A stretch of DNA of 64,000 nucleotides from a virus: positions 14,926-78,925 of the IMG/VR virus record IMGVR_UViG_3300044832_000053, one strand, 5' to 3'. How positions within the stretch are numbered: the stretch's first letter is position 1; each line of letters opens with the position of its first letter. This document shows, piece after piece, positions 19,272 through 34,960 of this stretch. The translations under genes were made by a program, and so were the position numbers. Under the pieces are notes generated by a model that was given only the letters and a program-made list of their open reading frames with translations, did no database searches and had not been told where the DNA came from.

Positions 19272-20183
19272 TCACACCCCCGAGAGCAGGCAGATGGACA
19301 GCGGCTGGTCCAGGCCGATGGCGCTGGCCCGCTGCGTGTCGGAGCGGAAGGTCTTCTTGGGCTCGTCGCGGTACAGCGGGCCCGCCATGAACGGCAGCTC
19401 GTCGGCGTAAAAGCCGCAGCGCTTGCGCTGCATGATGATCGCGTTGCCCGCCGGGAGCTGGCGGGAGACCATCACGTCCAGGTTGAAGATCTTGTTCGGC
19501 AGGACCCCGGTGTACTGGAGGTTCTCCGACGCGATGTCACCGATGTACGGCGCGGCGAACGTGCTGCTCTGGAGCAGGGTGTTCTTCGTGCCGTGGTTGA
19601 TGATCAGCGTGTCGGCCTCGAAGCCCAGCCACTGCGTGATACCCAGCGGGCTCACGATATTGGCGTTCTCCACGAGGAAAACGCCTTGTGCCAGGTCGGC
19701 CCGGATGGTAGCGGCGGCGCTGGCCCAGGCGTTGGCCACCGAGAGGGTCTGGATCGAGGCGTTCGCGATCACCGCCGAGAAGAAGGCGGTGTTCCACGAG
19801 TAGACCATCGTGTTCTTGACCTGGAGCAACTGCCGGGTCACGGGGTCGATGGACTGCCTGCGGCGCATCTCGTCGGAGACCATGATCGCCATGGCCCGCT
19901 CATGGGTGAACACCACCCGGGGGATGCCGAGGCTGGTCGGCACGACGGGGACCTCACCGAACTCGGGACGGATCTCGGGGAAGTCGTCCGCGTACAGAGG
20001 CGTGCTCTCGCTGTAGCGCACGGCACCGCTGGTCGCGGCCCCGCCATCGCGCAGCACCGAGTCCACGATGAACTCGTTCTCCGTCATGTCGAGGATCAGC
20101 GCCGGGATGACCAGCGGGTCCTTGAGCAGCTCGCTGACAGTGATCCGTGGGGAATCACTGACGCTGGTTGCCGTGGTGGGCAT
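19272..20183 (-). CDS. Major capsid protein
   Basis: 303 aa, EIRPEFGEVP, ADTLIIN and C-terminal DQPLSICLLSGV typical of HK97-fold capsids; position. Confidence 0.85.
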   Translation of the reverse strand: MPTTATSVSDSPRITVSELLKDPLVIPALILDMTENEFIVDSVLRDGGAATSGAVRYSESTPLYADDFPEIRPEFGEVPVVPTSLGIPRVVFTHERAMAIMVSDEMRRRQSIDPVTRQLLQVKNTMVYSWNTAFFSAVIANASIQTLSVANAWASAAATIRADLAQGVFLVENANIVSPLGITQWLGFEADTLIINHGTKNTLLQSSTFAAPYIGDIASENLQYTGVLPNKIFNLDVMVSRQLPAGNAIIMQRKRCGFYADELPFMAGPLYRDEPKKTFRSDTQRASAIGLDQPLSICLLSGV

Positions 20184-20935: not shown

Positions 20936-22153
20936 TCAGACGCCCGTCTGCTGGCGGTAGCGGGCCACCAGGGAGGCCCGGCCCTGGTGGGCGGCGGCGG
21001 CGTCCTCGCCAGGCTCGGCCCCGAGGGCGGACCCCAGCTCGTTGCCGAGGTCCAGCATCTTGGCCATCTTCCCGAACTCGGAGAAGATCTGGCGGACGAT
21101 CGCGCCCGCGTCCACCTCGGTGCCGTTGGACAGCTCCACGGTGCGCCCGGTGCCCTCCAGCAGCGGCCGGGCCAGGTCGCAGATGTAGGGCGCGATGCCG
21201 TAGGTGGCCATGAACCCGTGGCGCTCGGTCTCGTACCGCTGGGCGTCGAGCTGGTCGGTGACCGCACGGAGCTGGCGCTCGTTCTCCTCGCTCCGGGCGT
21301 TGGCCAGCTCGATGGCGAGCTGGGCGGACCCCGAGAGCTGGGCCCCGGCCCCGGCCTCCTGACCGGCGAGCAGCTCCGCGAGCTGCTCGTCAGACAGGGG
21401 ACCGCTGTCGGCCGGGCCGTCGAGGGCCTCGGCTGCGGCGATCAGCTCGGCCAGCTCCTCGTCGGTCAGCTCGGCGTCCGCCGCCGGGCCAGCCGTGGGA
21501 CCGGCCGGTGGCGTGGTGTCGAGGCTGGCGATGAGCTTATCCATCTTGTCGTCGGGAACGTCCAGGAGCCTGGCCAGCCGGGCCTGCTGCTCCGCGTTCA
21601 GCTCGGGCATCATGTCTCCTTCTGAATCGGGAGCGTCAAACGTGGCGTCGGAAAGGTCGATGACCGGGAGGTCATCGTTGGCAAGGTCCACCTGCTGCCA
21701 CGGCCCGAGGCCAGGCAGGCGGGGGTCGAGGGTGCCGAGGACGTGCTGGATGGCGGCCGGGAAGAACTGGCCGTCGGCGCGCTGGTAGTCCTCCACGATC
21801 CGGGCACTCACGCCCAGCCGTGGGTTGTCCTTGAGGATCTTGGAGCCCTCGTCCGTGGTGGACAGGGTGAGCCAGAGCCCGTCGGGCTCGGCGGTCATGG
21901 CGGCTACTTCCCCGCCGAAATTGCGGACATCGTTATTGTGCTTGTTGTCCGCCGACGCGAGCTGGAAGGGCACCTGGCCATAGGCCCGCTGGTGGAATGT
22001 CTCAGCCAGCCCGGCCAGGTAGTCCGCCGTGAAGTCGATCTTGCGGCCCTTGTAGTCGATGGAGCCCACCGGCAGCACCCGCTTGCGCCAGAAGCGCGGC
22101 CCGGCGACCCTGGCCGGGGAGCGGGTGTACGGCGTGAGGACGGCGGCTGTCAC
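20936..22153 (-). CDS. Prohead protease/scaffold (Mu gpI-like)
   Basis: N-terminal protease-like domain (H in NKHN, GVSA, HVLGTLDPRLPGL) plus acidic helical scaffold C-terminus. Confidence 0.8.
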   Translation of the reverse strand: MTAAVLTPYTRSPARVAGPRFWRKRVLPVGSIDYKGRKIDFTADYLAGLAETFHQRAYGQVPFQLASADNKHNNDVRNFGGEVAAMTAEPDGLWLTLSTTDEGSKILKDNPRLGVSARIVEDYQRADGQFFPAAIQHVLGTLDPRLPGLGPWQQVDLANDDLPVIDLSDATFDAPDSEGDMMPELNAEQQARLARLLDVPDDKMDKLIASLDTTPPAGPTAGPAADAELTDEELAELIAAAEALDGPADSGPLSDEQLAELLAGQEAGAGAQLSGSAQLAIELANARSEENERQLRAVTDQLDAQRYETERHGFMATYGIAPYICDLARPLLEGTGRTVELSNGTEVDAGAIVRQIFSEFGKMAKMLDLGNELGSALGAEPGEDAAAAHQGRASLVARYRQQTGV

Positions 22154-22785
22154 GAGCTGCCCCCGAAGCTCTGGGCCCGGCGGGCGAACGCCAGCGCGCG
22201 GGCGGCGGGCATCTTCTTGATCAGCTTCTTGTAGATGGCCACGCCCTTGGGATTCAGCCCGGCCACGGACCCGCCGGAGTCCGAGCTGCCCGAGTCGTCG
22301 CTGCCGGAGTCGGTGGTGCGCGGCCCGTCCGAGGATGAGTTCGCCGCCGTGGCCAGGGCGATGGCCCGGTGCTGGCCATTGGAGAAGGTCTGCACGGCCG
22401 GGATGCCGAACTGCCCCATCAGGGGGGTCTGGACCGCCCGGGGCTGCACCTCGCTCGGCGGGCGGCTCACCTCCTGGTTGTGCGTCCCGATCAGCTCATA
22501 CAGCGCGGCCCGCTGCTGGGTATGCGGGCTCAGCACCCGCTCCCCGAGCTTGCCCGCGTACCTGCCGTCCGCGAGCTTGATCATCTCCCCGATCTTCTGG
22601 CCAGCCCGGCGGTGCACCACGATGGCCCGGCCATCAGCACCCCGGGTCACGTGCAGGTCGAACGGGGAGGTCACCTTGGTCCGTCCCGGCTGGGACCTGG
22701 CCCGCTGCCCGGCAGTCATCGAGCGGACAATCGCCGCCCTGCTGGCACTATCCACGACAGAGCCTCCGTTATCCGGCTGGTTCAT
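22150..22785 (-). CDS. Hypothetical head-module protein
   Basis: Overlaps both neighbours by 4 nt; basic C-terminal helix pair. Confidence 0.6.
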   Translation of the reverse strand: MNQPDNGGSVVDSASRAAIVRSMTAGQRARSQPGRTKVTSPFDLHVTRGADGRAIVVHRRAGQKIGEMIKLADGRYAGKLGERVLSPHTQQRAALYELIGTHNQEVSRPPSEVQPRAVQTPLMGQFGIPAVQTFSNGQHRAIALATAANSSSDGPRTTDSGSDDSGSSDSGGSVAGLNPKGVAIYKKLIKKMPAARALAFARRAQSFGGSS

Positions 22786-22943
22786 TCGCCCTCCCCGGCC
22801 ACGGCCCGCCTGACCAGGTCATCGGCCATCTTGGCGGCCAGGTCAGTGGCCATTCCCTTGCTGATGAGCAGTTTCCCCAGGATCTCGGTCGCCCTGGCCT
22901 GCTGGTCGTCCGTGGCGTCTGCGGCCCGGGGCAGGGGAGCCAT
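22782..22943 (-). CDS. Small helical protein (53 aa, not in track)
   Basis: MAPLPRAADATDDQQARATEILGKLLISKGM...; overlaps both neighbours. Confidence 0.55.
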   Translation of the reverse strand: MAPLPRAADATDDQQARATEILGKLLISKGMATDLAAKMADDLVRRAVAGEGE

Positions 22944-23500
22944 CACAGCTTCTTCGCGGCGTCGGTGAGTTCCATGATCACTAGCGGGCCGAACGAGGCA
23001 CCCAGGCCCAGCAGGAGCGGAGCGCCGAACGTGGTGGCCAGGGCAACCAGGATCGCGGCGGCCACGATGGTCCCGATGTGGACAGCGAGCTTGATCCGGG
23101 CCTTCCTGGCTTCCTTCTCGGCAGCCAGCCTCTCCAGCTTCTGCTTGTCCATCTCGATCGCAGCGAGCTTTTTCGCCACGTCTGAGGCATGTGCCTCGCG
23201 GGCGGCTTCCTCGGCCCTGACTTCCTTGAGGACGGGGGCCTGCATGGCCGTGATGGCTATCAGGGACTGGAGCTGTGCCGCTCCCTGGGCCCTGGCAGCC
23301 TGGCTGGCCATGGCAGCGCGCGGGGTTGAGCCGCCCTTGATCCAGCGGCCGTGTGAATCCCGCAGCTCCAGTTCCATCTGGGCCAGCTCAATGGCTTCCC
23401 GCTCTGTCTCAAGAACGTCAACAGCCATGAGAAACGGGAGGCCAGCGGCGGTGAGGGTGCGGAAATCACGGAGCTGTCGCTGCGTGATCTGCGTGGGCAT
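22943..23500 (-). CDS. Head-module protein with IELA / RDSHGRW motif, coiled coil and C-terminal hydrophobic hairpin
   Basis: Translation shows AIELAQMELELRDSHGRW, then coiled coil and two hydrophobic segments. Confidence 0.65.
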   Translation of the reverse strand: MPTQITQRQLRDFRTLTAAGLPFLMAVDVLETEREAIELAQMELELRDSHGRWIKGGSTPRAAMASQAARAQGAAQLQSLIAITAMQAPVLKEVRAEEAAREAHASDVAKKLAAIEMDKQKLERLAAEKEARKARIKLAVHIGTIVAAAILVALATTFGAPLLLGLGASFGPLVIMELTDAAKKL

Positions 23501-23539
23501 CAGTGGTGACCCTCTCACTTGATCACTGATGCTACGCGC

Positions 23540-23812
23540 CTAGCCTGCTGTATGCATGCCCACAGAAGCGGCAGTAGCCAGGACACGGTACTGATCTGCC
23601 GTGATCCGGCCCGCGTTGAATGCCAGCTCGACCTCGTACCATGATCCTTCACCGGGCCACGGGCGTCCAGTCAGATCGCTGGCAATTGTCTCGTGATACC
23701 CGGCCGCCGGGGTGGTCTTTTCCCAGCTCAGGTGCGCGAATTTCACCGCTGCCTCAGCCAGGTCCATGTTCCCCGAGGTCAGGGCATCAAGGATGTCCCT
23801 CACATTGCCCAT
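23540..23812 (-). CDS. Small protein overlapping the end of the polyprotein gene (candidate zeta-toxin immunity)
   Basis: 90 aa, starts within last codons of the 1751-aa ORF; function inferred from position only. Confidence 0.5.
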   Translation of the reverse strand: MGNVRDILDALTSGNMDLAEAAVKFAHLSWEKTTPAAGYHETIASDLTGRPWPGEGSWYEVELAFNAGRITADQYRVLATAASVGMHTAG

Positions 23813-26800
23813 GAGAACTCCAGGCCCTGGCCGGAGCTGGACACGAGCTGCGGCTCGCGGCCGGTCACGGAGTTGTCGAACTTGTCCCAGGAGTCGAACA
23901 ATGGCAGGGCCATGGCGAATGTCATCTCGTTCACCGAGATCTCCGGGTCTGAGGTTCCCCAGATCTTCACGATGTCCGCCGGGGGGACATGCCGCCCGCC
24001 GAGCCCCTTGCCCGCCAGCCAGCTCTCCAGCCCCGCGCGGTAGCGGGCCAGCGCCCGGTCGATCGAGACCTGGAGCGGGACGTCAACATAGACGCCGTGC
24101 ACATGCCCGTAGCCAGCCGACCGCAGCCGGGCGATGTGCCCGGCCATGTCATCGGCCGGGAGCATGGTCAGGTCCACGATGATGTTCTTGCGCATCGCCA
24201 TCGAGCGGTCCAGCGCCATCTGGGCCAGGTGATGTGCCTCGTCGCTCACCAGCGGGCTGGCTTCCATGGGTGACAGGTTCCCGACGTGGGGCACCAGCCC
24301 GCGCTTGGCCAGCTCGGCCTTGAAATCATCCGGGGCGATGGGCAGGTAGTCGTCCATGTTCATGCCGGGCAGCTTGCCCAGTGCGGTGGTCTTGCCCGCG
24401 CCTGGCAGGCCGCCGCCGAAGATCGCCCGGCCCCCGTTGGGCACTGCGGCCGAGCGCGCCATGACCGCGTCGATGATCTCCTTGTGGATCGCGGCGCGCT
24501 CGGGGGTGTAGATCTGCCCGTCCCCGCTCACGGACTGGGTAACCGCCGTGTTCTGCCCGGCCGCGAAGGCGTCAGTCAGGGTCTGCTCCACTACGTGCTG
24601 CCGTCCCGTGAACTCGGCGTCCGTCAGCGGCCGGGCTGCCTGGCCGCTGATCCCGTGCGCGACCGTGGGTGATTCCTCGTAGTCGAGGTTGTCGTCTTCC
24701 TCGTCCCAGCGGTGGGTGTAGGCGGACGGCGTGATGTACGGGCCAGCGGAGATCAGGCCCTTGTCCCCGGCCGGGGGCGGCCCGGCCTTGACCGGCTTCC
24801 AGCCGTGCGTGTAGACGAAGGGCGTGCCCGGGATGTGACGGCCATGGCCGTCGCCGGTCAGGTCTAGCTGGGCGCTGACCGTGGCAGTGCCGCGACCGAG
24901 TCCGCCAGGGCCCGTGCGATCTCCAGCCGCCTGGCCTCCGGCAGCTCGCGATAGCTGGACGGGACCGGCCCCGCCACCACCTTGGGCGTGGGCTCCGCTG
25001 GCTGCTCCACCGCTACCTCCTGCCTGGATCTCCCGGCCGCCGGTCACGTCCCAGATAGCCGCCTGGCCGCGCTTCCTGCCCTCCGCGAGCGCCTGCTCCC
25101 GGCTGGCAATGTTGTCGCTCGGCTCCAGCCAGAGCTTACCGTCGTGCACCCATCCGCCCAGGTAGGTGTCTTTCCCGGCGAACGCCTGGTGCTCGCTCAT
25201 GATCATGCCGTCAATGGCACGGGCCAGCTTCTCCCGGTCATCGAGGATCTCAGCCGGGAAGGTGTGCGTGTGCCCGGCCTGGGCAACCATGAACCCGCTG
25301 GCTGGCTTGCCGCCGGTCCGCATGCTGACCGAGAATCCTCCCCGGTTCTGCGCGGCCGAGGCTGCCTTGCTGCGGATGGTGAACGGGCCGGGCCGGGGCG
25401 GCCCGGGTGAGGGGCGGAACATGCCCGCGATGGCCTGCTGCATCCGGGGGGGTTCCCCGCTGGGCAGGTTCACCCAGCGGCCCCGGAAGTCACGGGGCTC
25501 GTGAGCACTGAACGCCAGGTCGATGCCCGCTGCCTGGCCGCTCAGTGTGGTAGTCCCCGGGACCACCGGAACGTGATGGGCAGCGGCGAACTTCTTCCAG
25601 ATCCCCCAGTCCCGGGCGGTGTTGGCGGTGCGCCCGCGCTCCCGGGCCGTGACCGCTGCCGCGTCGGCCGCCTGGTTGGCGGCCTGCTGGTGCAGCCAGG
25701 TGATCGCCTGGAGCTGGGATGGGGTGACCAGGTGACCCTGCCGGGACAGCTCCGCAGCCGCCAGCCGGTAGGTGTCCGCGACGTGCTCGTAGTAGCGCTT
25801 GTCCCCGATGGGCGAGGCGTCGATCTCCTCCGTGGTCACCCGGTGCCCGGCCGCGACGGACAGGGCGTGCCGGTCAATGACCACCTGGCCGAGCCGGTCG
25901 GAGGATGCGTCCCCGCCGTGAGCGATCAGCTTCGCGAACGCCCGGGTCTTGGGGGACTTGAGGGCGTCGATACTGCCGGTGTCCATGGCCCGCTGCGCGG
26001 CCCGCTGCTCGGGGCGGCTGATGAAGCCCTCACCGGGGCCCAGGGCGCGGCCCAGCTCCAGCGAGCGGGCCGCGTTGAACAGGTTCTCCGGCCAGTTCAC
26101 CTGCGGGGAGAACGCGGCCAGCACCGCCGCGCCCTTCTCCGCATCCCCGCCCGCGATGGACCGGGCCACCATCTGTGCGTCGGCGTACCAGCGCATCCCC
26201 TGGGCCTTCTCAGCCGGGGCAGCCGCGCTGTAGGCGGCAACGATGTTCGCCGGGCTGACCGGCACCGACTTGAAGAACGGGTGATCCGCCGGGCTCACGA
26301 TGGAGCTGCGCGGGTTGGCCAGCCGGGAGGGGTCCGGGGCCGCGTACTCATGGCCGCTCACGCTCCACCGGCCATGAGGGTCCCGCAGCTCGGCGGGGTT
26401 GTAGTGCCAGCCGCCCGCCAGGTCAACGCTGAACTCCCGGAACTGGCCCAGCGCCACCCGGTCCGCGTGCGTGTATCCCTTCACCGGCTTGTAGGAGTGG
26501 ATGAACTCCGGGGGCAGCGGCTTGCGGATCGCCCGGTATCCCATGTGGCTGGTGCTGGGATACAGGAACTCAGCTTCCCTGGCCTTGGGCACCCGGATGT
26601 CGATCAGCATGCCCGGCTTAGACGGCCATTCAAGATCATCGTGCCGCTCGTACGCGACGATCTGCGACTCGTTGCTGTCTGGGGACAGCACTGGGTCGTA
26701 CCCGTCATACCCGGCTGCGTGCAGGCCCTGGTCCCGGATCGACCGGGCGGCCTCCGGCGTGGTGCCGTGGAAGAACTGGGTGTAGCTGGACGGGTCAGCC

Positions 26801-29055
26801 TCCGGCCCGCCCCGGGTCCACTCGCCATGCTCGTTGCGCAGCTCGTGCACCCAGTTGCCTGCGCTGGGCCTGGGGCTGGGGCTGCCGGAATCCTTCTTAT
26901 TCCACCAGCTCAGCTCAACACTGAACTCCCCGCCGCCGGGTCCCAGCTCACCGGCCCGCTCCATCATGTCCGAGTACCACATCTGGTGACCCAGCCGCTC
27001 GAACTGGGGCTCCAGCTTGGCCAGCTCCGCCCGGATCTTGTTGGCGTAGTCCTGCGGGATGTTCGAGGGCTCCTCATTCCAGAACGTGGTAGAAGCCGCG
27101 CCATCTCCGGCATATATGAAGCCCGAGCTGTTGTCGATGGCCACCGGGCTGCCGGACGGGGTGACCATCCAGTTATTGGAGTGGCGGTCCGGGTTCTGGA
27201 TCAGGAAGTCCAGCAGCCCGATCTTCTGGCCGTCCTCTGACTGGGTCAACTCGCTCTGGGCTCCGTAAGGTGCATCAGCCAGGTACCGCGAGGCGGTCGT
27301 GCCCGGGACAAAGCCCATGACCTCCTCAGCAGGATCACCCCCGCTGACGCGGGCGATGGGCGGTGAGGGTGCCCCGATGGCCTGGGCGACGTAGTAGGCC
27401 AGCTCGTCGGTGTCCGCCATCTCCTCATAACCGGAGTGGTAGATCTTGTGCACCACCTTCTCGCCATTGGGCAGGGTCACGATGTCCACATTGCCCTGGA
27501 CCCCCTGCTGAGGGTGCATGGACTCGCCCTCTGCGAGCTGATCCGGGGTAGCGATCTGCTCCAGGTGCTGTACGGCCGGGCTGGACGGTCCCAGCCCTCC
27601 CGGCTGCGGCATGCCCGGCAGCAGGTATTGCTTGACGCCCGTCGTGACCATCACCCCGGGGGCGGTCTGCCGGGGAGGCTCAGGCAGTCCCGCCAGGATC
27701 TTGGACGCCGGGACCGGGGTGCCCAGCAGGCCGTTGACCCGCCTGACCAGTTCAGGTCCGGCCTGGTACTCCCCGCCCGCGACAAACTGCCGGGCAAGCT
27801 GCTGGGCCCGGCCCTCGTTGATCGCCTGGTGCCGCTCCGCTCCTGCGGCGCGGGCGGATACCCGGTGCTCCATGACCGCAGCCCAGGTCTGCCCCTGGAT
27901 ACTGGGCGGGATCTGGGATAGCTGCTGGGCCTGGAGGACGTTACCCCCGTTCCGCCAGTCCACCAGGTAGCGGTTCCCGTCATCGGATTCGACCACCACG
28001 TTGCTGCTGGTCATGGCGGTGACCCGGCCTACCCCGCCATGGCCGTCGCGGGCCATGTCCCCGAGCTTCGGCTCCCGGTTGCCGGGCAGGAAGGCGGCCC
28101 CGGCCCCGCTGCCGTGCGGGCCGATGAATTCCCACTGCTTCCCGCCCGGGGATGGGCTGGGCGTCTCCGCCTGCGGGTTGAATGCGGGCCGGGGCGTGCC
28201 CATCTTCATCCCGCCCAGTCGCGGGCCAGCCTGGCTGAGCGGGACGGTGTGCACGGGGGCACCACCGTTGCGCCAGTCCACCAGGTGACGCTTCTGGTCG
28301 TTGGCGTCGATCACCGCATGGCCGCCGCCTTTGTTGACGACCCTCCCCCAAACGCCCTGGCTGTTGCGTGCCTGGTCATTGACCTGCGGCTCCGCCACTA
28401 CCTGGGAGCCACCCCGGATGAACTGCCAGCGGCCGAGGATCGCGGGCCCGGCGACCTCATCCGCCAGCAGCGCCCGGTGCAGCCTGGATTCCTGGTTCAG
28501 GGCACTTACCTGGGCAGCGGTGCCTGAAACCTGCCGGAAATCAGCACCGTGCACGGGCTGGAGCTGGGCCGCGACCGAGTCCGGTGCCTGGCCGTGTATT
28601 CCCGGGTGTGCGCCCCGGATGATCTGGCCCTGCTCATCCACTGTCCAGGTGTCGAGATTCTCCCGGCGGTTGTTGTGCTGGACCCGCCGCAGTCTCTGGG
28701 CGTTGACCAGCCGGTCCTCGCCTATCTGATCCCGGATCGACTCCGGCCCCATCCCACGGGCCCGCAGGACCCGGGCCCGGTTAATCTCCGCCCCGTCGCG
28801 GAGGCCCTTGGGGGTCGGGGCCTGCTTCATCCGGTCTGCCCGCTCCTGGGCCGCCGCCGCGTCATGCTTGGCCTGCCACATGATCCCGTTGATGGCGGTC
28901 GGGCCGTAACCCCGTGCCGCGAGTGCAACGCGCTTGCGCTGGTCCTCCAGGGCCGTGGCGGAGAATCCGGGCCTCTTCGCCCAGCGCCCGTGGGTGTCAC
29001 GGAGCTGATTGGGCTGGAAGTGCCAGGCCAGGTCCACCTGCTCGCTGATGCTCAC
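23800..29055 (-). CDS. Multi-effector (polyvalent) protein: SH3-like repeats, HipA/PI3-4-kinase-like, ADP-ribosyltransferase-like, HhH-glycosylase-like, SAM-lyase-like(?), zeta-toxin P-loop kinase
   Basis: Motifs LLDFLIQNPDRHSNN/VAIDN; FFHGTT..AARSI..QGL..PLPPEFI; GMRWY..SPQVNW..KTRAF..VVIDRHA..LQAITW; YLGGW..GRKRGQAAIWD; GGLPGAGKTT..IAPDDFK..GGRHVP. Confidence 0.85.
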   Translation of the reverse strand: MSISEQVDLAWHFQPNQLRDTHGRWAKRPGFSATALEDQRKRVALAARGYGPTAINGIMWQAKHDAAAAQERADRMKQAPTPKGLRDGAEINRARVLRARGMGPESIRDQIGEDRLVNAQRLRRVQHNNRRENLDTWTVDEQGQIIRGAHPGIHGQAPDSVAAQLQPVHGADFRQVSGTAAQVSALNQESRLHRALLADEVAGPAILGRWQFIRGGSQVVAEPQVNDQARNSQGVWGRVVNKGGGHAVIDANDQKRHLVDWRNGGAPVHTVPLSQAGPRLGGMKMGTPRPAFNPQAETPSPSPGGKQWEFIGPHGSGAGAAFLPGNREPKLGDMARDGHGGVGRVTAMTSSNVVVESDDGNRYLVDWRNGGNVLQAQQLSQIPPSIQGQTWAAVMEHRVSARAAGAERHQAINEGRAQQLARQFVAGGEYQAGPELVRRVNGLLGTPVPASKILAGLPEPPRQTAPGVMVTTGVKQYLLPGMPQPGGLGPSSPAVQHLEQIATPDQLAEGESMHPQQGVQGNVDIVTLPNGEKVVHKIYHSGYEEMADTDELAYYVAQAIGAPSPPIARVSGGDPAEEVMGFVPGTTASRYLADAPYGAQSELTQSEDGQKIGLLDFLIQNPDRHSNNWMVTPSGSPVAIDNSSGFIYAGDGAASTTFWNEEPSNIPQDYANKIRAELAKLEPQFERLGHQMWYSDMMERAGELGPGGGEFSVELSWWNKKDSGSPSPRPSAGNWVHELRNEHGEWTRGGPEADPSSYTQFFHGTTPEAARSIRDQGLHAAGYDGYDPVLSPDSNESQIVAYERHDDLEWPSKPGMLIDIRVPKAREAEFLYPSTSHMGYRAIRKPLPPEFIHSYKPVKGYTHADRVALGQFREFSVDLAGGWHYNPAELRDPHGRWSVSGHEYAAPDPSRLANPRSSIVSPADHPFFKSVPVSPANIVAAYSAAAPAEKAQGMRWYADAQMVARSIAGGDAEKGAAVLAAFSPQVNWPENLFNAARSLELGRALGPGEGFISRPEQRAAQRAMDTGSIDALKSPKTRAFAKLIAHGGDASSDRLGQVVIDRHALSVAAGHRVTTEEIDASPIGDKRYYEHVADTYRLAAAELSRQGHLVTPSQLQAITWLHQQAANQAADAAAVTARERGRTANTARDWGIWKKFAAAHHVPVVPGTTTLSGQAAGIDLAFSAHEPRDFRGRWVNLPSGEPPRMQQAIAGMFRPSPGPPRPGPFTIRSKAASAAQNRGGFSVSMRTGGKPASGFMVAQAGHTHTFPAEILDDREKLARAIDGMIMSEHQAFAGKDTYLGGWVHDGKLWLEPSDNIASREQALAEGRKRGQAAIWDVTGGREIQAGGSGGAASGAHAQGGGGAGPVQLSRAAGGQAAGDRTGPGGLGRGTATVSAQLDLTGDGHGRHIPGTPFVYTHGWKPVKAGPPPAGDKGLISAGPYITPSAYTHRWDEEDDNLDYEESPTVAHGISGQAARPLTDAEFTGRQHVVEQTLTDAFAAGQNTAVTQSVSGDGQIYTPERAAIHKEIIDAVMARSAAVPNGGRAIFGGGLPGAGKTTALGKLPGMNMDDYLPIAPDDFKAELAKRGLVPHVGNLSPMEASPLVSDEAHHLAQMALDRSMAMRKNIIVDLTMLPADDMAGHIARLRSAGYGHVHGVYVDVPLQVSIDRALARYRAGLESWLAGKGLGGRHVPPADIVKIWGTSDPEISVNEMTFAMALPLFDSWDKFDNSVTGREPQLVSSSGQGLEFSWAM

Positions 29056-29273
29056 GGGTGCACCCAGACGTACCCGTTGCTCCAGCCGTCCAGGGACTCG
29101 AACGCGATCTCCGCATCACCGCCAGCCCGGCGCAGCGCTGAGTCCGCGATGGCCTGGCTGGACTCGCTGCTGCCGGTCAGGCGGTCCGTGTCCAGCCTGA
29201 TGGTGCCGAGCTGGCCCTGCTCATCGAAGACCCCCAGCGTCAGCGGCTCACCGGCCTGGCTGGAGATGCTCAC
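29052..29273 (-). CDS. Small acidic protein (ends WSNGYVWVHP)
   Basis: Overlaps both neighbours by 4 nt. Confidence 0.6.
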   Translation of the reverse strand: MSISSQAGEPLTLGVFDEQGQLGTIRLDTDRLTGSSESSQAIADSALRRAGGDAEIAFESLDGWSNGYVWVHP

Positions 29274-30958
29274 AGCTTGCTGGCCGCGAAAGTGAGCTGG
29301 GCGGCCTGGGTACGGAGCTGGGAGATCTGCTTGCGGACCGCCAGGATACGGCTGGTCAGGTTAGCCGTGGCACTGGCCTTCGTGGTCTTGGACGCGGCCC
29401 TGGTCACGGCCTTCTTCGCGCTCGCGGCCGTGGTCTTCTTCGAGGTGGCAGCCTTCCTCGCCGCTGCCGCCGTGGTCTTCTTCGACCCGGTGGTGTGCTG
29501 CTTGGTGTGCGCCGCGTGCTGGGCCCTGAGCTGTGCTTCCAGCCCCTTGAGAACGATGGACAGTGCGTTGGCCTTCTGCCGGTCCGCCTTGGCCCGGGAT
29601 AGCAGCTTGCGCTTCTTCACCTGCTTCGAGCCCCCGGCCGGGGCCGCGCCACCCGCGCCCCAGGTCCCGCCAGCGGTCCGGGGCTCAGCCGGGTTGAATC
29701 CGGCCAGCTCGACGGACTCATACCACTCATTGGAATGGCTGGAATCCTGGGCATGAGCCCGTGCGGACATCGAGGCCAGCCCGGCCAGGGCCTTCACCGC
29801 AGCCGCCCTGACCTCGGGGTGCACGCTGCCGCCTCCGGCCGCCCACTTGCGGATCGAGCCCCAGGTGATCGCCGTGGCCGACCCCTCGCTGTGCCCGGCC
29901 CGGATCAGTGCGTTGCGGACGTTCTGGAAGTAGGGCGGGAACTCCATGCCCTTGACGTGGTAGGCCCCCGGCCCGCCTGGCTTCCCGATCGGGGCGGGCG
30001 TGACCGCCAGCCGGGCGGTGTCGGCGGACATCTCCAGGGCCTGGGAACTGATGGTTGAGTACCCCTGCGGAGGGGGTGCCTGGGTGTGGGCAGCCATGGA
30101 GTACGGGGCGGTCATCCCCGGCCCGGTGACCCGGTAGTCATGAGTTATCGCGCCCACCCCGGCGGGCACGCCTGCCAGGCTGGCGCGGACCGCCCGGACA
30201 TCCTGGACCGCCAGCGGGCTGGTGTGCCGGGCGGCCCACTCGGCCGAGTCCAGCGCCTTGCGTGCGTGCCCCATCTTGCGCATCGCGGTGAACCGGGCGG
30301 CGGCGCGCATCGAGGTGCGCAGCATCTCAGCCGCCGGTCCGGGACTTGCGTTGTTGCGCAGCTCGCCCTGGGGCTGGTACTTGTCACCGACGCCCTCGAT
30401 GGCCCGGATATGCGAGAACCCGCCGGGTGCACCGGAGTAGCTGAATGAGCTGTGCCCGCCCGGCCCGAGGACCCACCGCCCGTCCGGGCCCCGGAGCTGG
30501 TCAGGGTGGAAGGCCAGCTCGATGCTGTAGTCCTGCTGGCCGGTGCCGGTTCCGTTCAGGTTCGCGATGTCAAAACCCCCGGGCTGGTCCCCGGCCGCCC
30601 CGGGCCGTATCCCGCTGCCTTTCACGTCGGCCCTGGCCGCCGCCTGCTGGTCGCGGTACGCCTGGTTGGATGCCTCAGCGTCCTCGATGTCCTTGATCAG
30701 CAGGCAGTGCCGGTTGATCATGTCCATGTGCCGCTTGGCGTGGGCGTGCCCGTCATCGTCGGTGATGCCGTGCCGGTACAGCGACAGCGGGGCCAGGGTG
30801 TGCATCGCGGCGGCCAGGTGCCTCCCGGCCGACTCGGTCTTGCCCCGGTGCATCGAGTTCGCCGCGTCCCGCAGGTGATCCCCGACGCCCAGCTCGGGCA
30901 GCACCTGGTCGGTGCGATGGGCCACGCCCCGGATGGATGTGGCCACGGCCTGCTTCAT
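29270..30958 (-). CDS. Modular head-associated protein with Lys/Ala-rich C-terminus
   Basis: Likely start MKQAVAT (30958) just after MuF stop; contains IELAFHPDQLRGPDGRW, ISSQALEMS, VELAGFNPAEPRTAGGTW. Confidence 0.7.
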   Translation of the reverse strand: MKQAVATSIRGVAHRTDQVLPELGVGDHLRDAANSMHRGKTESAGRHLAAAMHTLAPLSLYRHGITDDDGHAHAKRHMDMINRHCLLIKDIEDAEASNQAYRDQQAAARADVKGSGIRPGAAGDQPGGFDIANLNGTGTGQQDYSIELAFHPDQLRGPDGRWVLGPGGHSSFSYSGAPGGFSHIRAIEGVGDKYQPQGELRNNASPGPAAEMLRTSMRAAARFTAMRKMGHARKALDSAEWAARHTSPLAVQDVRAVRASLAGVPAGVGAITHDYRVTGPGMTAPYSMAAHTQAPPPQGYSTISSQALEMSADTARLAVTPAPIGKPGGPGAYHVKGMEFPPYFQNVRNALIRAGHSEGSATAITWGSIRKWAAGGGSVHPEVRAAAVKALAGLASMSARAHAQDSSHSNEWYESVELAGFNPAEPRTAGGTWGAGGAAPAGGSKQVKKRKLLSRAKADRQKANALSIVLKGLEAQLRAQHAAHTKQHTTGSKKTTAAAARKAATSKKTTAASAKKAVTRAASKTTKASATANLTSRILAVRKQISQLRTQAAQLTFAASKL

Positions 30959-30984: not shown

Positions 30985-31608
30985 CTACGCGGCCAGGCGC
31001 ACCAGGGTTGGCAGGAGCGGCGCTCCCCTGAACGGGGCCACCGGGTGGCACCGGCAGTGCGGGTGCACCGTTCCCGGGTACCCGATTGCCGGGGGGATTG
31101 CGGCCAGGAAGTTGCGGCCGTCCGCTGCCTTGCACTCGGGCGACGTCCGGGCGTCGTGTACTGACTGCCATCCGAGAACCTTTCCCCATCTGTAAGCCGC
31201 GCCGTCGATGGCCGACCCGGCCATGATGCGCCCCTGGTTGGCCTCGAAGTGCTGGCCGAAGTAGCGGGATTCGGTCTCGGCCAGCCGGTCAAGCGCCTCG
31301 GCACGTGGCTCGCCCCGGCTGGCGGCCCCGGCCAGGCCGTCCTGGATGCGGTGGGCGGCGGCCACGAAGAACGCTGAGCGCCGGGCGATGTTGGCGTGCG
31401 CAGCCCATCGGGTGGCCGGGCCGACGCCCTCGATCCGGTCAGGCGGGTAGCGGGTCTCGATGGCGATCACCGCGCGCAGCGCCGGGCCGCTGATGCCCGC
31501 GCCATGGAACGTCCCGGCGATCTGCGTGAAGATGCCAGCCGCCGACGGGTAGGCCGCGAACGCCCGCGCTGCGGTAAGCGCGAGCATGGCATCGCTGCGG
31601 GCGCTCAT
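30985..31608 (-). CDS. MuF-like minor head protein
   Basis: WQSVHDARTSPEC..DGR..PGTVHPHCRC; ATG at 31608 in ATGA overlap; follows portal. Confidence 0.85.
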   Translation of the reverse strand: MSARSDAMLALTAARAFAAYPSAAGIFTQIAGTFHGAGISGPALRAVIAIETRYPPDRIEGVGPATRWAAHANIARRSAFFVAAAHRIQDGLAGAASRGEPRAEALDRLAETESRYFGQHFEANQGRIMAGSAIDGAAYRWGKVLGWQSVHDARTSPECKAADGRNFLAAIPPAIGYPGTVHPHCRCHPVAPFRGAPLLPTLVRLAA

Positions 31609-31802
31609 ACCGGGTGGACCGTCCCGTCCCGGGCGAAGTGCTCGTCCACGGTGTGCCCGTACTCCATCGCGTGCATCGCGGCGTCGTTGAGCACCCCGGG
31701 GATGGTCATGGGGTAGCTGGTGGTGCTGGCGGTCTCGGTGAAATCGCCGTCCTGGCAGGTCACGGTCATGGTCTCGGTTGAGTCGATCCTGATGGGGGTC
31801 AT
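31605..31802 (-). CDS. Small hypothetical protein (65 aa, MTPIRID...)
   Basis: ATGA overlaps with portal and MuF. Confidence 0.55.
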   Translation of the reverse strand: MTPIRIDSTETMTVTCQDGDFTETASTTSYPMTIPGVLNDAAMHAMEYGHTVDEHFARDGTVHPV

Positions 31803-33370
31803 GCCATCTTCCCGGGTGGCGGCACCATGGGCGGCTTGCCCGGCGGCCGTGGCGGCCCGGCAGCACTCTGGCGCGGTGGCATCTGCCCGGGGGCGGGGAC
31901 CTGGCCACCCGTGGCCTGGTGGGCGATGCCCAGCGCGGTGCTGGCCATGCCGTTGAGCGCGCCCACCCCGGCCAGGGCCGAGGGGGGCATGCCGGGAGGG
32001 GCCCCGGCGGCCCCGGCGAGCTGGGCGGCCCGCTGGGACGCTGAGTTGACCAGCGCGGTGTGCACCTGGTCGATGTCGAGCTGGAGGACCGAGGCCATCC
32101 GCTCGGCCAGCAGGTCCACGAACTCGATGGGGATGTGCAGCGCGGGGGCGGCGACGATCTGCCCGAACAGGGTCAGCAGCGCCTGGATCTGCTCGTCCTG
32201 GAGCGGCCCGAACTTGAACTTGGGGAAGGCGGCGTCGGGCCCGAAGTTCAGGATGATCATGGGAGCGATGACGTCGTGGCTGATCCACCCGGCCATCTCC
32301 TTGGCCACAGCCTGCCGGGACTTGAGGTAGAAGCTGGACTGGTCCTGGGACAGCGCGTAGCTTCCCTTGCCGCCCGTGGATGCCCCGGTCAGGCCCATGA
32401 ACCCGGCCAGTACCGAGCCGATCTGCCACTGCTCCAGGAAGCCCAGGGCCTCCTTGAAGATCGCGCCGCCCTCGCCAGCCGCCGGGATGGTCTCGAACGA
32501 CTTCTGGCCCGCCTCGGGATGGACCAGGCCCACCACGCCGGAGGACCGCAGCGAGGCAATGTCATCCGCGCGGGTGTTGGCCTCGGGCTGGTCATTGCCG
32601 TAGACGATCGTGCGCGGCAGGGCCAGGTTTTCGAGGTAGTTGTACCAGAGGAACAGCAGCTTCATCTTGGTCTGGTAGCACCAGTAGGCGATCTCCATCT
32701 CGCTGACCCCGACCAGGGGCTCGCGGTGGGTGCCGTGGGTGTAGATGGCGCTGCGGATCTTGGGGATGTCCACGTACCCGGGGACCTTGGACTTGGCCTG
32801 GAGGGTGTTGGCCTGGCCGAACATCCACACGAGCTGGCGGAACCCGTTCGGGTTCCCGCTCCGCTCGTTGAACGCGCTCTGGCAGGTGGACGGCGGCCGG
32901 TAAGCGAGCTTGTCAAGCACCACCCGCTCGTCGCTGGCCCGGATCTTCCAGACCTTCTCGAAGAACGCCTTCTTGTAGATCTGCCCGGACGTGACCTGGC
33001 CGATGAACTGCTCGATGGGCGTCTGCATGCCGCCCTCGGTGTCCGGGGTCATCAGCACCGAGTTGGCCAGGTCGGCCTCGCCCTTGTCGCCCTTGGCGGG
33101 CTCGATGGACTGGTCAGCCTCGCGGACGGGCAGGGTCAGCACCATCTCGATGGCCGAGCACTGGCCATCGCGGCGGAACATGGTTTTCATGTCCCGCGCG
33201 CCCCACTCGCCATAGTCGAAGACGTCGCCGGAGCCGAAGTAGGCGAACAGCTTCTGGCCGTAGTCGAACGCGGTCCCGATCTCCGGGCCCATCAGGTCCC
33301 GGCGGTCACCGGGCTTGAGGTCGGGGAACTTGAGGATGCGGGCGGTGGACGGGTCGCGGGCTGCCATCAC
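31799..33370 (-). CDS. Portal protein (Mu gp29/DUF935-like)
   Basis: FFEKVW, KGSYALSQDQSSFY, LNFGPDAAFPKFKF; follows terminase. Confidence 0.9.
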   Translation of the reverse strand: MMAARDPSTARILKFPDLKPGDRRDLMGPEIGTAFDYGQKLFAYFGSGDVFDYGEWGARDMKTMFRRDGQCSAIEMVLTLPVREADQSIEPAKGDKGEADLANSVLMTPDTEGGMQTPIEQFIGQVTSGQIYKKAFFEKVWKIRASDERVVLDKLAYRPPSTCQSAFNERSGNPNGFRQLVWMFGQANTLQAKSKVPGYVDIPKIRSAIYTHGTHREPLVGVSEMEIAYWCYQTKMKLLFLWYNYLENLALPRTIVYGNDQPEANTRADDIASLRSSGVVGLVHPEAGQKSFETIPAAGEGGAIFKEALGFLEQWQIGSVLAGFMGLTGASTGGKGSYALSQDQSSFYLKSRQAVAKEMAGWISHDVIAPMIILNFGPDAAFPKFKFGPLQDEQIQALLTLFGQIVAAPALHIPIEFVDLLAERMASVLQLDIDQVHTALVNSASQRAAQLAGAAGAPPGMPPSALAGVGALNGMASTALGIAHQATGGQVPAPGQMPPRQSAAGPPRPPGKPPMVPPPGKMA

Positions 33371-34960
33371 TCACCGCCAGGAGCGGACGTTCGGCCGTTC
33401 GGGACGATCTTGATCATCCCCCTCACCGTCTTTGGGCGCGAAGGATTCGAGATCCCAGCGCTGGTCCTGATCGTAGGCCCCTCCGTGCGCGTAGGCGAGC
33501 CGCCGGGACGGTAGCTGCCCAAGCGGCTTGCTGAATTCCTCCAGATCCTGGCTCGCTGCCCACCGCCGCACGGACGCCGGGACCCCCCGGGTGTCGAAGC
33601 TGCTCTTGAGAAACGGGTGCACTGCCCAGCACAGCGAATCGAGCCGGTCAGGGCTGCGCTCGTTGGCCGCCCCGGTGAAGGAGCACATCTGGTCCTCCAG
33701 CTCCACGAACGGCCCGTAAGCGTGCCGGACCAGGCCCCGCTCGTACAGCGCGGCGGCGGGCTCGGCCCGGGTCCGCTTGCCGAGGCTGGCGTGCACGGTC
33801 TTCACGTGCGGGACATGGTCCGCCAGCCGCCCGGCCTTGGTCAGCTTCTTCTTGACCTGGGAGAACACCTCGGCCAGCCAGGCCCCGCCGTGGTTCTTCT
33901 CCACCACCAGGCTGGCTCTCCACTCGTGGGCCGCCAGCAGGGCCTTCTCCGCGAACTGGGCCGGGCCGATCCGGCCGCCCCAGCTATCAAGGATGTAAAC
34001 AAATCCGTCGTTGCCCATCCCGGCCACCGTGTACGCCTGCTCATCGGAGTCCTCGGTGCCGTCCGAGGGGTCAACACCGACGTAGATAGTGAGCATGGAG
34101 ACCGGGCGGCCGTCGTCCAGCATGGGCTTGCCTACCTGGATGGACTCCAGCAGGTCCCGGGTCCACAGCGCATTCTCGACGTCATCGAGCAGCTCGCCTT
34201 CCAGCTCCTGGCGTTCCAGCCGGGTGCCCTTGGCCAGCGCGATGACGCCCTGGAAGAACGCCTCGGACAGGTTGGCGATGTTGTCGATGGTCCGCAGGCG
34301 GCGGATGACCATGCCGGGCTCGTCGCCCCGCAGGAACCGGCGGATCAGCGCGGCGGCGGGCCGGGAAACCTTGGGTGTCCCGGTGGTGATGATCTTGGAC
34401 GCGCCGAGCCGGACCGCGAACTTGATTGACTCGTCCCAGGCGATGGCCCACTTCTGCCAAAGCCCGATCTCATCCCCCCACAGGCCCTTGAGGTTCTTGC
34501 CCTGGACCCGCAGCGCACCGTCGTCGGCGGAGTCCACGAAGATGATGTGACCGTTGCGGAGCCCGATCTCGCCGTAGCTGCGGTGTGCATAGGCAACCTG
34601 CTTGGAGCTGTGGTCCTTGACCTCCCCGGCCGAGGTTCCCAGTGCGGCCAGAATGCCAGCCCGGCCCTCCACGCAGACGGTCCAGGCGTCCCGGTAGGTG
34701 GGCGCGACGATGCCCCACTCCCCATCGGCCTCGCCGTCGTCCAGGATGAGCTGAGCGAGGCCCTGAGCCCCCGCACGGGTCTTCCCGCTGCCACGGCCGC
34801 CCTGGTAGTACACCTTGGACCATGGCTCCTCAGGGAGCCGCTGGGACGGCCGGGCGGTGTCCAGCCAGGCCATCCGGGGATCGACGGCAACCGAGTCGAG
34901 CGCGTCCGCGACCGCGCTGAGCAGATCCTGGTCAGCCGGTGGGACGTAGATGGCGGACAA
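33371..34960 (-). CDS. terL: Terminase large subunit
   Basis: GGRGSGKTRAG Walker A, LWGDE Walker B, TGTP, VGVDP and SPDRLDS nuclease motifs. Confidence 0.95.
   Translation of the reverse strand: MSAIYVPPADQDLLSAVADALDSVAVDPRMAWLDTARPSQRLPEEPWSKVYYQGGRGSGKTRAGAQGLAQLILDDGEADGEWGIVAPTYRDAWTVCVEGRAGILAALGTSAGEVKDHSSKQVAYAHRSYGEIGLRNGHIIFVDSADDGALRVQGKNLKGLWGDEIGLWQKWAIAWDESIKFAVRLGASKIITTGTPKVSRPAAALIRRFLRGDEPGMVIRRLRTIDNIANLSEAFFQGVIALAKGTRLERQELEGELLDDVENALWTRDLLESIQVGKPMLDDGRPVSMLTIYVGVDPSDGTEDSDEQAYTVAGMGNDGFVYILDSWGGRIGPAQFAEKALLAAHEWRASLVVEKNHGGAWLAEVFSQVKKKLTKAGRLADHVPHVKTVHASLGKRTRAEPAAALYERGLVRHAYGPFVELEDQMCSFTGAANERSPDRLDSLCWAVHPFLKSSFDTRGVPASVRRWAASQDLEEFSKPLGQLPSRRLAYAHGGAYDQDQRWDLESFAPKDGEGDDQDRPERPNVRSWR

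What the first reader, a model, noticed from the sequence alone, without database searches (positions are those of the whole stretch)
20936..30530. Shared [VIL]-[DE]-L-[AST] site across head-module proteins, including the protease/scaffold junction
Seen: QQVDLAN (about 21680) exactly where the protease domain ends and AIELAN (about 21305) in the scaffold; AIELAQ (about 23390); SIELAF (about 30520), ALEMSA (about 30035) and SVELAG (about 29710) in the 29270-30958 protein; AIALAT in 22150-22785; plus the five polyprotein sites. Several are preceded by [IVL]-S-x-Q (MSISEQVDLA, TISSQALEMS, TLSGQAAGIDLA, TVSAQLDLT). Inference: a protease recognition code readable from the genome, which lists its substrates.
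Basis: partly seen in the sequence, partly recalled or inferred. Interest (0 to 1): 0.82.

Follow-up and report, generated by a model that had tools for sequence, protein, structure and literature searches.

The report
Phage cargo tag with protease-site core
An uncultured actinobacterial phage marks each module of its capsid-loaded effector proteins with a conserved two-part peptide. The first part matches conserved sites in the phage's own capsid protease, so it is probably where the protease cuts, though no cutting has been measured.

Summary
The sites exist and exceed chance. [VIL][DE]L[AST] occurs 14 times in 3,360 aa of head-module proteins, against 5 in the other 18,673 aa of the 78.9-kb phage genome (shuffles give 1.2).

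The 4-mer is only part of the signal. In cargo proteins it forms the first half of a 25-30-aa tag: ([ST][IL][ST]xQ)-phi-[DE]-L-[AGS], then about 10 aa, then E-x-R-[DG]-x-x-G-[RE]-W. Seven full tags occur in the genome, all in g639, the 1751-aa polyprotein and g191. They bound modules that recur in relatives as separate ORFs. A tag profile finds 988 protein clusters in 1.84 billion.

The N-domain of the 405-aa protein has the T4 gp21/herpesvirus protease fold (Z 10.2). Its tail carries six phi-[DE]-L-[AS] sites conserved across 65 homologues.

The protease-code reading is therefore plausible and partly supported. Three limits apply:
- Cleavage is unproven.
- The bare 4-mer is a poor substrate list: cargo in relatives holds 1.6 per 1000 aa against 1.0 background.
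- AIALAT is not a member of the motif.

The closest known systems are the T4 capsid-targeting sequence with gp21, and the SPN3US/phiKZ A-X-E code. This scan has noted similar tag-plus-site cassettes, with different motifs, in other phage genomes.

The parts
21719..22153 (-). g405 N-terminal domain (aa 1-145): prohead-protease fold, with invariant His72, Ser116 and His137
   Evidence: Domain model has pLDDT 84 and pTM 0.81. T4 gp21 5jbl_A scores Z 10.2, rmsd 3.5 over 129 aa; VZV protease Z 7.3; HCMV protease Z 5.6; the best unrelated chain Z 4.9. Foldseek gives 5jbl E 1.2e-3, prob 1.0. Invariant residues. No Pfam or NCBIfam hit.
20936..21718 (-). g405 C-terminal extension (aa 146-405): acidic and mostly helical, scaffold-like, carrying six conserved phi-[DE]-L-[AS] sites
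   Evidence: Secondary structure. Site logos over 65 homologues. The scaffold role is inferred from position and composition only.
21680..21691 (-). Site a, VDLA (aa 155-158). Family consensus A-[VI]-E-[AML]-[AS]-N, in a disordered linker after the protease fold
21650..21661 (-). Site b, IDLS (aa 165-168). Asp166 and Leu167 are invariant. Predicted as a short strand. Retained in homologues down to 32% identity
21302..21313 (-). Site c, IELA (aa 281-284). Family consensus A-[IL]-[ED]-[LM]-A-N
21170..21181 (-). Site d, CDLA (aa 325-328).
21128..21139 (-). Site e, VELS (aa 339-342). Family consensus [TV]-V-[DE]-L-[AS]-N-G
21044..21055 (-). Site f, LDLG (aa 367-370). Family consensus M-L-D-L-[SG]-V-E-L-G-S
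23800..29055 (-). 1751-aa polyvalent cargo protein: PI3/4-kinase-like, DUF7178 and Zeta-toxin-like modules
   Evidence: Pfam and PHROGs hits. Modules recur separately in relatives.
28966..29055 (-). Polyprotein tag 1 (aa 1-30): VSISEQ-VDLA-WHFQPNQLRDTHGRW
   Evidence: HMM hit E 2.8e-7
26803..26925 (-). Polyprotein tag 2 (aa 711-751): FS-VELS, a 22-aa insert, then HELRNEHGEW
26341..26433 (-). Polyprotein tag 3 (aa 875-905): FS-VDLA-GGWHYNPAELRDPHGRW, opening the DUF7178 module
25459..25551 (-). Polyprotein tag 4 (aa 1169-1199): TLSGQAAG-IDLA-FSAHEPRDFRGRW
24796..24885 (-). Polyprotein tag 5 (aa 1391-1420): TVSAQ-LDLT followed by a different second half, GDGHGRHIPGTPFVYTHGW. It opens the Zeta-toxin module
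   Evidence: The same pairing is seen in P0151 and P0160.
23803..23835 (-). C-terminal half-tag SSSGQG-LEFS-WAM at the end of the polyprotein
29270..30958 (-). g639 (562 aa from Met78): cargo protein next to MuF, with two full tags and one half-tag
30458..30529 (-). g639 tag (aa 221-244): YS-IELA-FHPDQLRGPDGRW
   Evidence: HMM hit E 2e-10
30026..30055 (-). g639 half-tag (aa 379-388): TISSQA-LEMS, with no second half
29648..29719 (-). g639 tag (aa 491-514): ES-VELA-GFNPAEPRTAGGTW
   Evidence: HMM hit E 1.4e-6. The junction is conserved in relatives.
23327..23398 (-). g191 tag (aa 41-64): EA-IELA-QMELELRDSHGRW
   Evidence: Best HMM hit, E 4.6e-11
23606..23632 (-). g90 degenerate tag: VELAFNAGR
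   Evidence: Not detected by the HMM.
29232..29273 (-). g73 N-terminus VSISSQAGEPLTLG: SxQ prefix without a clear core
30985..31908 (-). MuF-like minor head protein, untagged
   Evidence: Weak hits below each family's curated cut-off: PF04233 E 1.3e-5 and TIGR01641 E 1.1e-5

Best explanation
The phi-[DE]-L-[A/G/S] core, usually preceded by a small residue, is the substrate site of the phage's own prohead protease, the N-domain of the 405-aa protein.

The site is used in two places:
- In the protease's own C-terminal tail, about six conserved copies let the enzyme free itself and break down the scaffold-like tail.
- In cargo proteins, the core is the first half of a two-part tag at the N-terminal edge of each module. 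Cutting there would release the modules of the polyprotein inside the capsid.

The second half of the tag, E-x-R-[DG]-x-x-G-[RE]-W, would stay on the new N-terminus. It is inferred to be a separate capsid-loading or retention element.

Shown here: the motif, its enrichment and conservation, the modularity, and the protease fold. Inferred: the cleavage itself, the enzyme responsible, and the exact bond. I slightly favour a cut after the acidic residue, as in T4 gp21 and SPN3US gp245. A herpesvirus-like cut after the small residue is also possible.
For: - Enrichment in the window genome and in protease homologues: 7.1 against 0.99 per 1000 aa, p 4e-62.
- Six sites are conserved in 65 homologues. 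Three of them (a, b, c) are conserved islands in otherwise variable or disordered sequence.
- Site b persists in homologues down to 32% identity.
- The N-domain has the gp21/assemblin fold with invariant His, Ser and His.
- There are exactly seven full tags in the genome, all in cargo genes.
- In relatives the tag occurs 107 times in cargo and 0 times in 107,000 aa of downstream genes.
- The same DUF7178 module occurs as a standalone ORF, at an N-terminus or internally, and is bounded by tags except in the standalone L064 ORF, where the strict pattern found none.
- The core is kept while the second half is swapped: GDGHGxHIPGTPFVYxHGW, and RYVRTxAGAxRYGxPIG in Mwe-JY05.
- The P3-P1 pattern A/S/T-phi-E/D fits the measured A-X-E rule of SPN3US gp245.
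Against: - There are no proteomic or biochemical data.
- The 4-mer is only 1.6-fold enriched in the cargo of relatives.
- Only 158 of 569 tags in the wider family have a strict core, and the most distant tags lack it.
- Sites d, e and f lie in a generally conserved, folded part of the tail, so they may be structural.
- Five of 33 related loci with enough upstream sequence have no tag.
- The Streptomyces phage Marky polyprotein has at most one core-like site.
- The sequence just upstream of tags is not enriched in flexible residues.
Confidence: 0.55

Rival explanations
1. The whole 25-30-aa tag is a docking peptide that is not cut. It would bind the scaffold-like tail, the capsid interior or the portal to load cargo. 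The resemblance to the g405 sites would then reflect a shared binding surface or a shared strand-forming habit rather than proteolysis.
For: - The R-x-x-x-G-x-W half is the most conserved and most specific part of the tag.
- Distant tags keep only that half.
- Site b of g405 is predicted as a strand packed on the domain.
- Targeting peptides without cleavage are known: the HK97 protease tail and the P22 scaffold-binding domain (from general knowledge, not checked here).
Against: - One tag per polyprotein would be enough for loading, yet each module has its own.
- The core is retained when the second half is replaced by unrelated motifs.
- Half-tags with only the core exist.
Confidence: 0.25
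2. The tags are cut by a different enzyme. Candidates are a host protease or another phage protease, for example the papain-like gene noted by another first-stage reader in the 36.7-40.3 kb region. The cut might happen after injection into the host cell.
For: - The polyvalent-protein paper (PMC5512222) predicts processing by proteases other than the prohead protease.
- Nothing here ties g405 to the cargo sites except motif likeness.
Against: - No peptidase domain was found in the polyprotein.
- The same core recurs in the head protease's own conserved tail.
- The tags co-occur with this protease in 28 of 33 loci.
Confidence: 0.1
3. The tags are conserved DNA linkers that promote recombination between modules, and the peptide has no function. 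Alternatively, the 4-mer is a composition artefact of a genome with 69% G+C.
For: - Modules are shuffled between phages at tag boundaries.
- Ala, Leu, Asp, Glu and Val are common in this proteome.
Against: - Tag DNA is only 50-80% identical, and synonymous codons differ.
- Amino-acid shuffles never reach the observed count.
- The tag is absent from all non-cargo proteins.
Confidence: 0.04

Closest known systems
Phage T4 internal proteins (IPI-III, Alt) with the capsid targeting sequence, processed by prohead protease gp21 (PMC3012670, PMC9026906)
   Same: - Otherwise unrelated, fast-evolving anti-host proteins share a short leader that loads them into the prohead.
- The protease shares the fold (Z 10.2 to gp21).
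- The scaffold and the protease itself carry the same kind of site.
   Different: - Here the putative cut site comes before the conserved peptide, so that peptide would stay on the mature cargo.
- The tags are internal and repeated, up to 7 in one related locus and up to 8 matched stretches in one protein of the wider set, and they join modules into polyproteins.
- The protease has no detectable sequence similarity to gp21.
- The host is an actinobacterium and the phage is about 79 kb.
SPN3US gp245 and phiKZ gp175 prohead proteases with an A/S/G-X-E cleavage code read across many head proteins (PMC10052503, PMC5694885)
   Same: - A short motif shared by the protease's own propeptide and many head or ejection proteins.
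- A small residue at P3 and an acidic residue at P1 fit the cores here.
- The protease removes its own C-terminal part.
   Different: - In those phages cleavage is measured by mass spectrometry; here it is not.
- They show no conserved tag after the site, and no tag-punctuated polyproteins are described for them.
- Here Asp is accepted as well as Glu, and Leu follows.
Polyvalent proteins of phages and conjugative elements (Iyer et al. 2017, PMC5512222)
   Same: - Giant multi-effector proteins in the virion gene cluster next to MuF.
- The domain set matches (Zeta toxin, ART-PolyVal, ParB, GNAT), and the tagged proteins also carry Acb1.
   Different: - That paper predicts processing by built-in zincin metallopeptidases.
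- Term searches of its text did not find a repeated inter-module tag or a head-protease site.
- No peptidase domain is found in this polyprotein.
Herpesvirus assemblin maturation and release sites (general knowledge, not checked in the library)
   Same: - The protease fold is shared (VZV Z 7.3, HCMV Z 5.6).
- The protease is fused to a scaffold and cuts itself free.
- The site has a hydrophobic residue and then a small residue.
   Different: - The assemblin consensus is (V/L/I)-X-A then S.
- The acidic residue and the Leu found here are not part of it.

Membership tests
Prohead (capsid maturation) serine protease of the T4 gp21 / HK97 / herpesvirus assemblin fold | The assemblin-type fold | tested here: met
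   5jbl_A scores Z 10.2, rmsd 3.5 over 129 of 165 aa. 1vzv scores Z 7.3 and 8j3s Z 5.6; the next unrelated chain scores 4.9. Foldseek gives 5jbl prob 1.0. The model has pLDDT 84.
Prohead (capsid maturation) serine protease of the T4 gp21 / HK97 / herpesvirus assemblin fold | Conserved catalytic Ser and His | tested here: inconclusive
   His72, Ser116 and His137 are invariant in 60 sequences. Whether they superpose on the catalytic residues of gp21 or assemblin could not be checked, because no model coordinates were available.
Prohead (capsid maturation) serine protease of the T4 gp21 / HK97 / herpesvirus assemblin fold | Gene in the head module between portal and major capsid protein | tested here: met
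   The gene order is terminase, portal, MuF, cargo, g211, g405, g163, capsid protein. The order is the same in phages Marky and Mwe-JY05.
Prohead (capsid maturation) serine protease of the T4 gp21 / HK97 / herpesvirus assemblin fold | Match to a curated protease sequence family (Pfam S77, S78, U35, Mu-I; NCBIfam) | tested here: not met
   No Pfam or NCBIfam hit (E up to 10 and up to 1). No PDB sequence hit with the profile.
T4-type capsid-targeting-sequence system | A short shared leader on otherwise unrelated internal head proteins | tested here: met
   Seven full tags in three cargo genes and none elsewhere in the genome. In relatives, 107 in cargo against 0 in downstream genes.
T4-type capsid-targeting-sequence system | The leader ends at the protease site and is removed | tested here: not met
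   The order is reversed. The putative site lies 10-14 aa upstream of the conserved R-x-x-x-G-x-W, so the conserved peptide would remain on the cargo.
T4-type capsid-targeting-sequence system | Demonstrated cleavage and packaging | not testable with these tools
   This needs virion mass spectrometry or a reporter fused to the tag.
Polyvalent proteins (Iyer et al. 2017) | Two or more unrelated effector domains in one polypeptide, in a virion-gene context | tested here: met
   The polyprotein carries PI3/4-kinase-like, DUF7178 and Zeta-toxin domains. Tagged relatives carry ART-PolyVal, ParB_N, GNAT and Acb1.
Polyvalent proteins (Iyer et al. 2017) | A built-in zincin metallopeptidase for self-processing (frequent, not obligatory) | tested here: not met
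   No peptidase family was found in the 1751-aa protein.
A-X-E type prohead-protease code (SPN3US, phiKZ) | Small residue at P3 and Glu at P1, shared by the protease tail and its substrates | tested here: inconclusive
   Logos show A81-[VI]-E81, A78-I-[ED] and [TV]-V-[DE] in g405, and A/V-[IL]-[DE] in tags. This is compatible, but the cut position is unknown and Asp is as common as Glu.

The most novel reading that the evidence does not exclude
A large, undescribed family of actinobacterial phages uses a two-part plug-in cassette: a head-protease site followed by a retained E-x-R-[DG]-x-x-G-[RE]-W peptide. The tag profile finds 988 protein clusters. Any effector module could be added to the capsid cargo through this cassette and released as a separate protein. 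The first half would be read by the protease, and the second half would act as a loading or ejection address. The address is interchangeable, with at least three variants seen.
Probability: 0.4. Interest if true: 0.75.

Novelty: new variant of a known kind. Interest (0 to 1): 0.62.

Why it matters
If the core is cut and the second half is an address, then the cargo of a whole group of uncultured actinophages can be read directly from sequence. That cargo includes anti-defence enzymes such as Acb1, ADP-ribosyltransferases and Zeta-type kinases.

It would also answer how polyvalent proteins are separated into working units when they have no built-in peptidase. The tag could further serve as a handle for loading foreign proteins into capsids.

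The prediction is concrete and cheap to test by virion mass spectrometry.

Tried and rejected
Contexts came from the search for related loci instead.
- Pfam, NCBIfam and PHROGs gave nothing for g405. A profile search against PDB sequences gave nothing.
- The full-length g405 model was poor (pLDDT 68) and its fold hits were weak. The domain-only model resolved the fold.
- A DNA-repeat or recombination-linker reading is rejected, because tag DNA is only 50-80% identical.
- The composition of the 30 aa upstream of tags did not differ from the rest of the proteins, so that test was uninformative.
- AIALAT in g211 and ILDMT in the capsid protein are rejected as sites.
- tblastn with two tags found no cultured phage. 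The DUF7178 module occurs untagged in cluster A mycobacteriophages.
- A test for co-variation between site a and the cargo cores was not informative. Site a is mostly V-E-A-A-N in relatives, while cargo cores keep Leu.
- Term searches of the polyvalent-protein and MuF-toxin papers (cleav, linker, conserved motif, GRW, tryptophan and others) did not find this tag.


Full report
**Setting.** The window is most of a single 78.9-kb contig with 69% G+C. Its late genes lie on the minus strand in this order:
- large terminase, 33371-34960
- Mu-type portal, 31799-33370
- a weak MuF match, 30985-31908
- a 562/639-aa protein (g639), 29270-30958/31189
- a 73-aa ORF (g73)
- a 1751-aa protein, 23800-29055, with PI3/4-kinase-like, DUF7178 and Zeta-toxin matches
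- 90-, 191- and 211-aa ORFs (g90, g191, g211)
- a 405-aa protein (g405), 20936-22153
- a 163-aa protein (g163)
- the major capsid protein, 19272-20183

Streptomyces phages such as Marky and the record Mwe-JY05 have the same gene order. Related contigs are binned with Actinomycetota MAGs.

**The observation.** Taking g639, g73, the polyprotein, g90, g191, g211 and g405 together, [VIL][DE]L[AST] occurs 14 times in 3,360 aa. It occurs 5 times in the other 18,673 aa. Shuffling the same proteins gives 1.23 +/- 1.11, and 0 of 2000 shuffles reach 14 (Fisher p 2e-8).

Two cited items do not hold up:
- AIALAT lacks the acidic residue and lies in an insertion absent from 55 homologues.
- The VDLT at polyprotein aa 1627 is inside the Zeta domain.

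**What the sites are in cargo proteins.** Seven sites are followed within about 10-26 aa by R-x-x-x-G-[RET]-W; the strict pattern R-[DGN]-x-x-G-[RET]-W matches six of them and is absent from the rest of the genome (6 against 0).

In 79 related IMG/VR loci the same arrangement recurs. The logo is ([ST][IL][ST]xQ)-[AV]-[IVL]-[DE]-[LM]-[AG], then 0-5 aa, then [WF]..E-x-R-[GD]-x-[HR]-G-[RE]-W-[TIV]-[KR]-G. The core lies 10-14 aa before the Arg in about 70 of 97 distinct tags.

An HMM of the tag, run over all six frames of the whole genome, finds exactly seven copies. All are in g639 (2), the polyprotein (4) and g191 (1). The next hit has E 0.03.

In the deduplicated relatives the second half occurs 107 times in cargo and never in 107,000 aa of downstream structural genes. 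The prefix plus core occurs 34 times against 0.

By itself it does not list substrates.

Tag DNA is only 50-80% identical, so selection acts on the peptide.

**Modularity.** Polyprotein aa 877-1195 (DUF7178) lies between two tags. In relatives it recurs as a standalone 363-364-aa ORF (one starting with the tag; in the other, L064, the strict pattern finds none), at the N-terminus of larger proteins, or internally, and in the larger proteins it is bounded by tags. Twenty of 97 tags open an ORF, typically as M/V-S-I-S-E-Q.

The core can be separated from the second half:
- At polyprotein aa 1391, TVSAQ-LDLT is followed by GDGHGRHIPGTPFVYTHGW, a pairing also seen in two other proteins.
- In Mwe-JY05, VELA is followed by RYVRTxAGAxRYGxPIG in both the MuF-like protein and the polyprotein.
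- Half-tags with only the first element occur at g639 aa 379 and at the polyprotein C-terminus.

**Breadth.** The tag profile finds 988 cluster representatives at E <= 1e-3 among 1.84 billion, and 203 at E <= 1e-10. Most are 500-3000 aa with 2-8 tags, and the median spacing between tags is 263 aa.

Thirty-five of them carry DUF7178 (24), ParB_N, PI3/4-kinase-like, alpha/beta hydrolase, Zeta toxin, GNAT, ART-PolyVal, Acb1, histidine phosphatase or Arr domains. This is the repertoire of polyvalent proteins (PMC5512222).

In the wider set only 158 of 569 tags have a strict core, and the most distant tags keep only the second half. No deposited phage matched two tag queries.

**The protease.** g405 has no Pfam, NCBIfam or PHROG family.

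A domain-only AlphaFold model built from 60 sequences (pLDDT 84, pTM 0.81) matches:
- T4 gp21, at Z 10.2 (rmsd 3.5, 129 aa)
- VZV protease, at Z 7.3
- HCMV protease, at Z 5.6

The best unrelated chain scores 4.9. Foldseek agrees. His72, Ser116 and His137 are invariant. Their order, His then Ser then His, recalls the assemblin triad, but that is a resemblance from memory, not a test.

Residues 146-160 are low-confidence, and residues 164-166 (IDL) form a strand.

**The protease's own sites.** In 65 homologues at about 50% identity the tail keeps six sites:

| Site | Residues | Family consensus |
|---|---|---|
| a | 154-159 | A-[VI]-E-[AML]-[AS]-N |
| b | 164-168 | [VT]-[IL]-D-L-[ST], with Asp and Leu invariant |
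| c | 280-285 | A-[IL]-[ED]-[LM]-A-N |
| d | 324-330 | I-T-[DE]-L-A-R-P |
| e | 338-344 | [TV]-V-[DE]-L-[AS]-N-G |
| f | 366-375 | M-L-D-L-[SG]-V-E-L-G-S |

The motif density in these homologues is 7.1 per 1000 aa against 0.99 in downstream genes (p 4e-62). Sites a, b and c are conserved islands in variable or disordered sequence. Sites d, e and f lie in a generally conserved region and could be structural.

Site b persists in homologues down to 32% identity. Those distant homologues add an N-terminal A-I-E-L-[SA] site that the window lacks.

**Mechanism.** The simplest account is that phi-[DE]-L-small is the protease's substrate site. The tail would be self-processed and degraded, as scaffolds are in T4, and cargo modules would be cut apart at their tags.

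The pattern of a small residue, a hydrophobic residue and an acidic residue fits the A-X-E (P3-P1) rule measured for SPN3US gp245 (PMC10052503). The nearest fold is gp21, which cuts after Glu (general knowledge). I therefore slightly favour a cut after the acidic residue. A cut after the small residue, as in herpesvirus proteases, cannot be excluded.

The second half of the tag would remain on each released module. It is inferred to be a loading or retention address.

None of this is measured. The main rival is that the whole tag is an uncut docking peptide.

**Comparison and novelty.** The logic is that of the T4 capsid-targeting sequence with gp21, and of the phiKZ/SPN3US code. It differs in three ways:
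- The site precedes the conserved peptide.
- The tags are repeated inside polyproteins.

Term searches of the polyvalent-protein paper and the MuF-toxin paper did not find such a tag.

Other readers of this scan noted the same tag on this genome. Follow-up agents have reported analogous site-plus-tag cassettes with different motifs in other phage genomes. No look-alike stretch of this DNA was indexed elsewhere.

**Verdict.** This is a real, conserved signal and a new variant of a known kind. The protease-code reading is plausible (about 0.55) but untested.

Noticed in passing
window 22943-23518 (-): After its tag, g191 has a coiled-coil stretch and a C-terminal hydrophobic segment of about 40 aa that looks like two membrane spans. 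It may be an ejected membrane-inserting protein.
   Followed up: no
window 29270-29650 (-): The last module of g639 is a Lys/Ala/Thr-rich, histone-H1-like tail encoded partly by a 42-nt tandem duplication (29402-29485). It may be a DNA-binding internal protein.
   Followed up: no
window 22150-22785 (-): g211 is a conserved gene directly upstream of the protease in 69 of 80 loci. It has its own motifs (VSRGxDGxAVIRHRQGG and LATP..SDGPR) and no known family.
   Followed up: partly
window 29270-29273, 29052-29055, 22150-22153: There are four-base stop/start overlaps between g639 and g73, between g73 and the polyprotein, and between g211 and g405. This suggests translational coupling, and it makes fusing or splitting modules easy.
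   Followed up: no
L002 (Microcystis phage Mwe-JY05) 5199-11741: This record shares the head module. It repeats VELA-RYVRTxAGAxRYGxPIG in its MuF-like protein and its 1669-aa polyprotein, which is a different second half after the same core. The cyanobacterial host label looks odd for a phage group otherwise tied to Actinomycetota.
   Followed up: partly
P0121-P0156: One tagged polyprotein carries an Acb1 anti-CBASS domain, and others carry ART-PolyVal and Arr-type ADP-ribosyltransferases. The tag therefore marks candidate anti-defence cargo.
   Followed up: partly
Mycobacteriophages Kimona, HINdeR, Rockstar and others: The DUF7178 module occurs as a small untagged gene near the right end of cluster A mycobacteriophage genomes, sometimes annotated as a glycosylase. 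The same effector is therefore used both as capsid cargo and as an ordinary expressed gene.
   Followed up: no
L001 gene 14; L087-L089: Distant protease homologues have an extra A-I-E-L-[SA] site about 15 residues from the N-terminus, before the fold begins. This is a possible N-terminal propeptide site, and the window lacks it.
   Followed up: partly
window 27590-29000 (-), polyprotein aa 26-488: The polyprotein region before the kinase-like module has no tag at the point (around aa 489) where relatives start a separate tagged module. Not every module junction is tagged.
   Followed up: no
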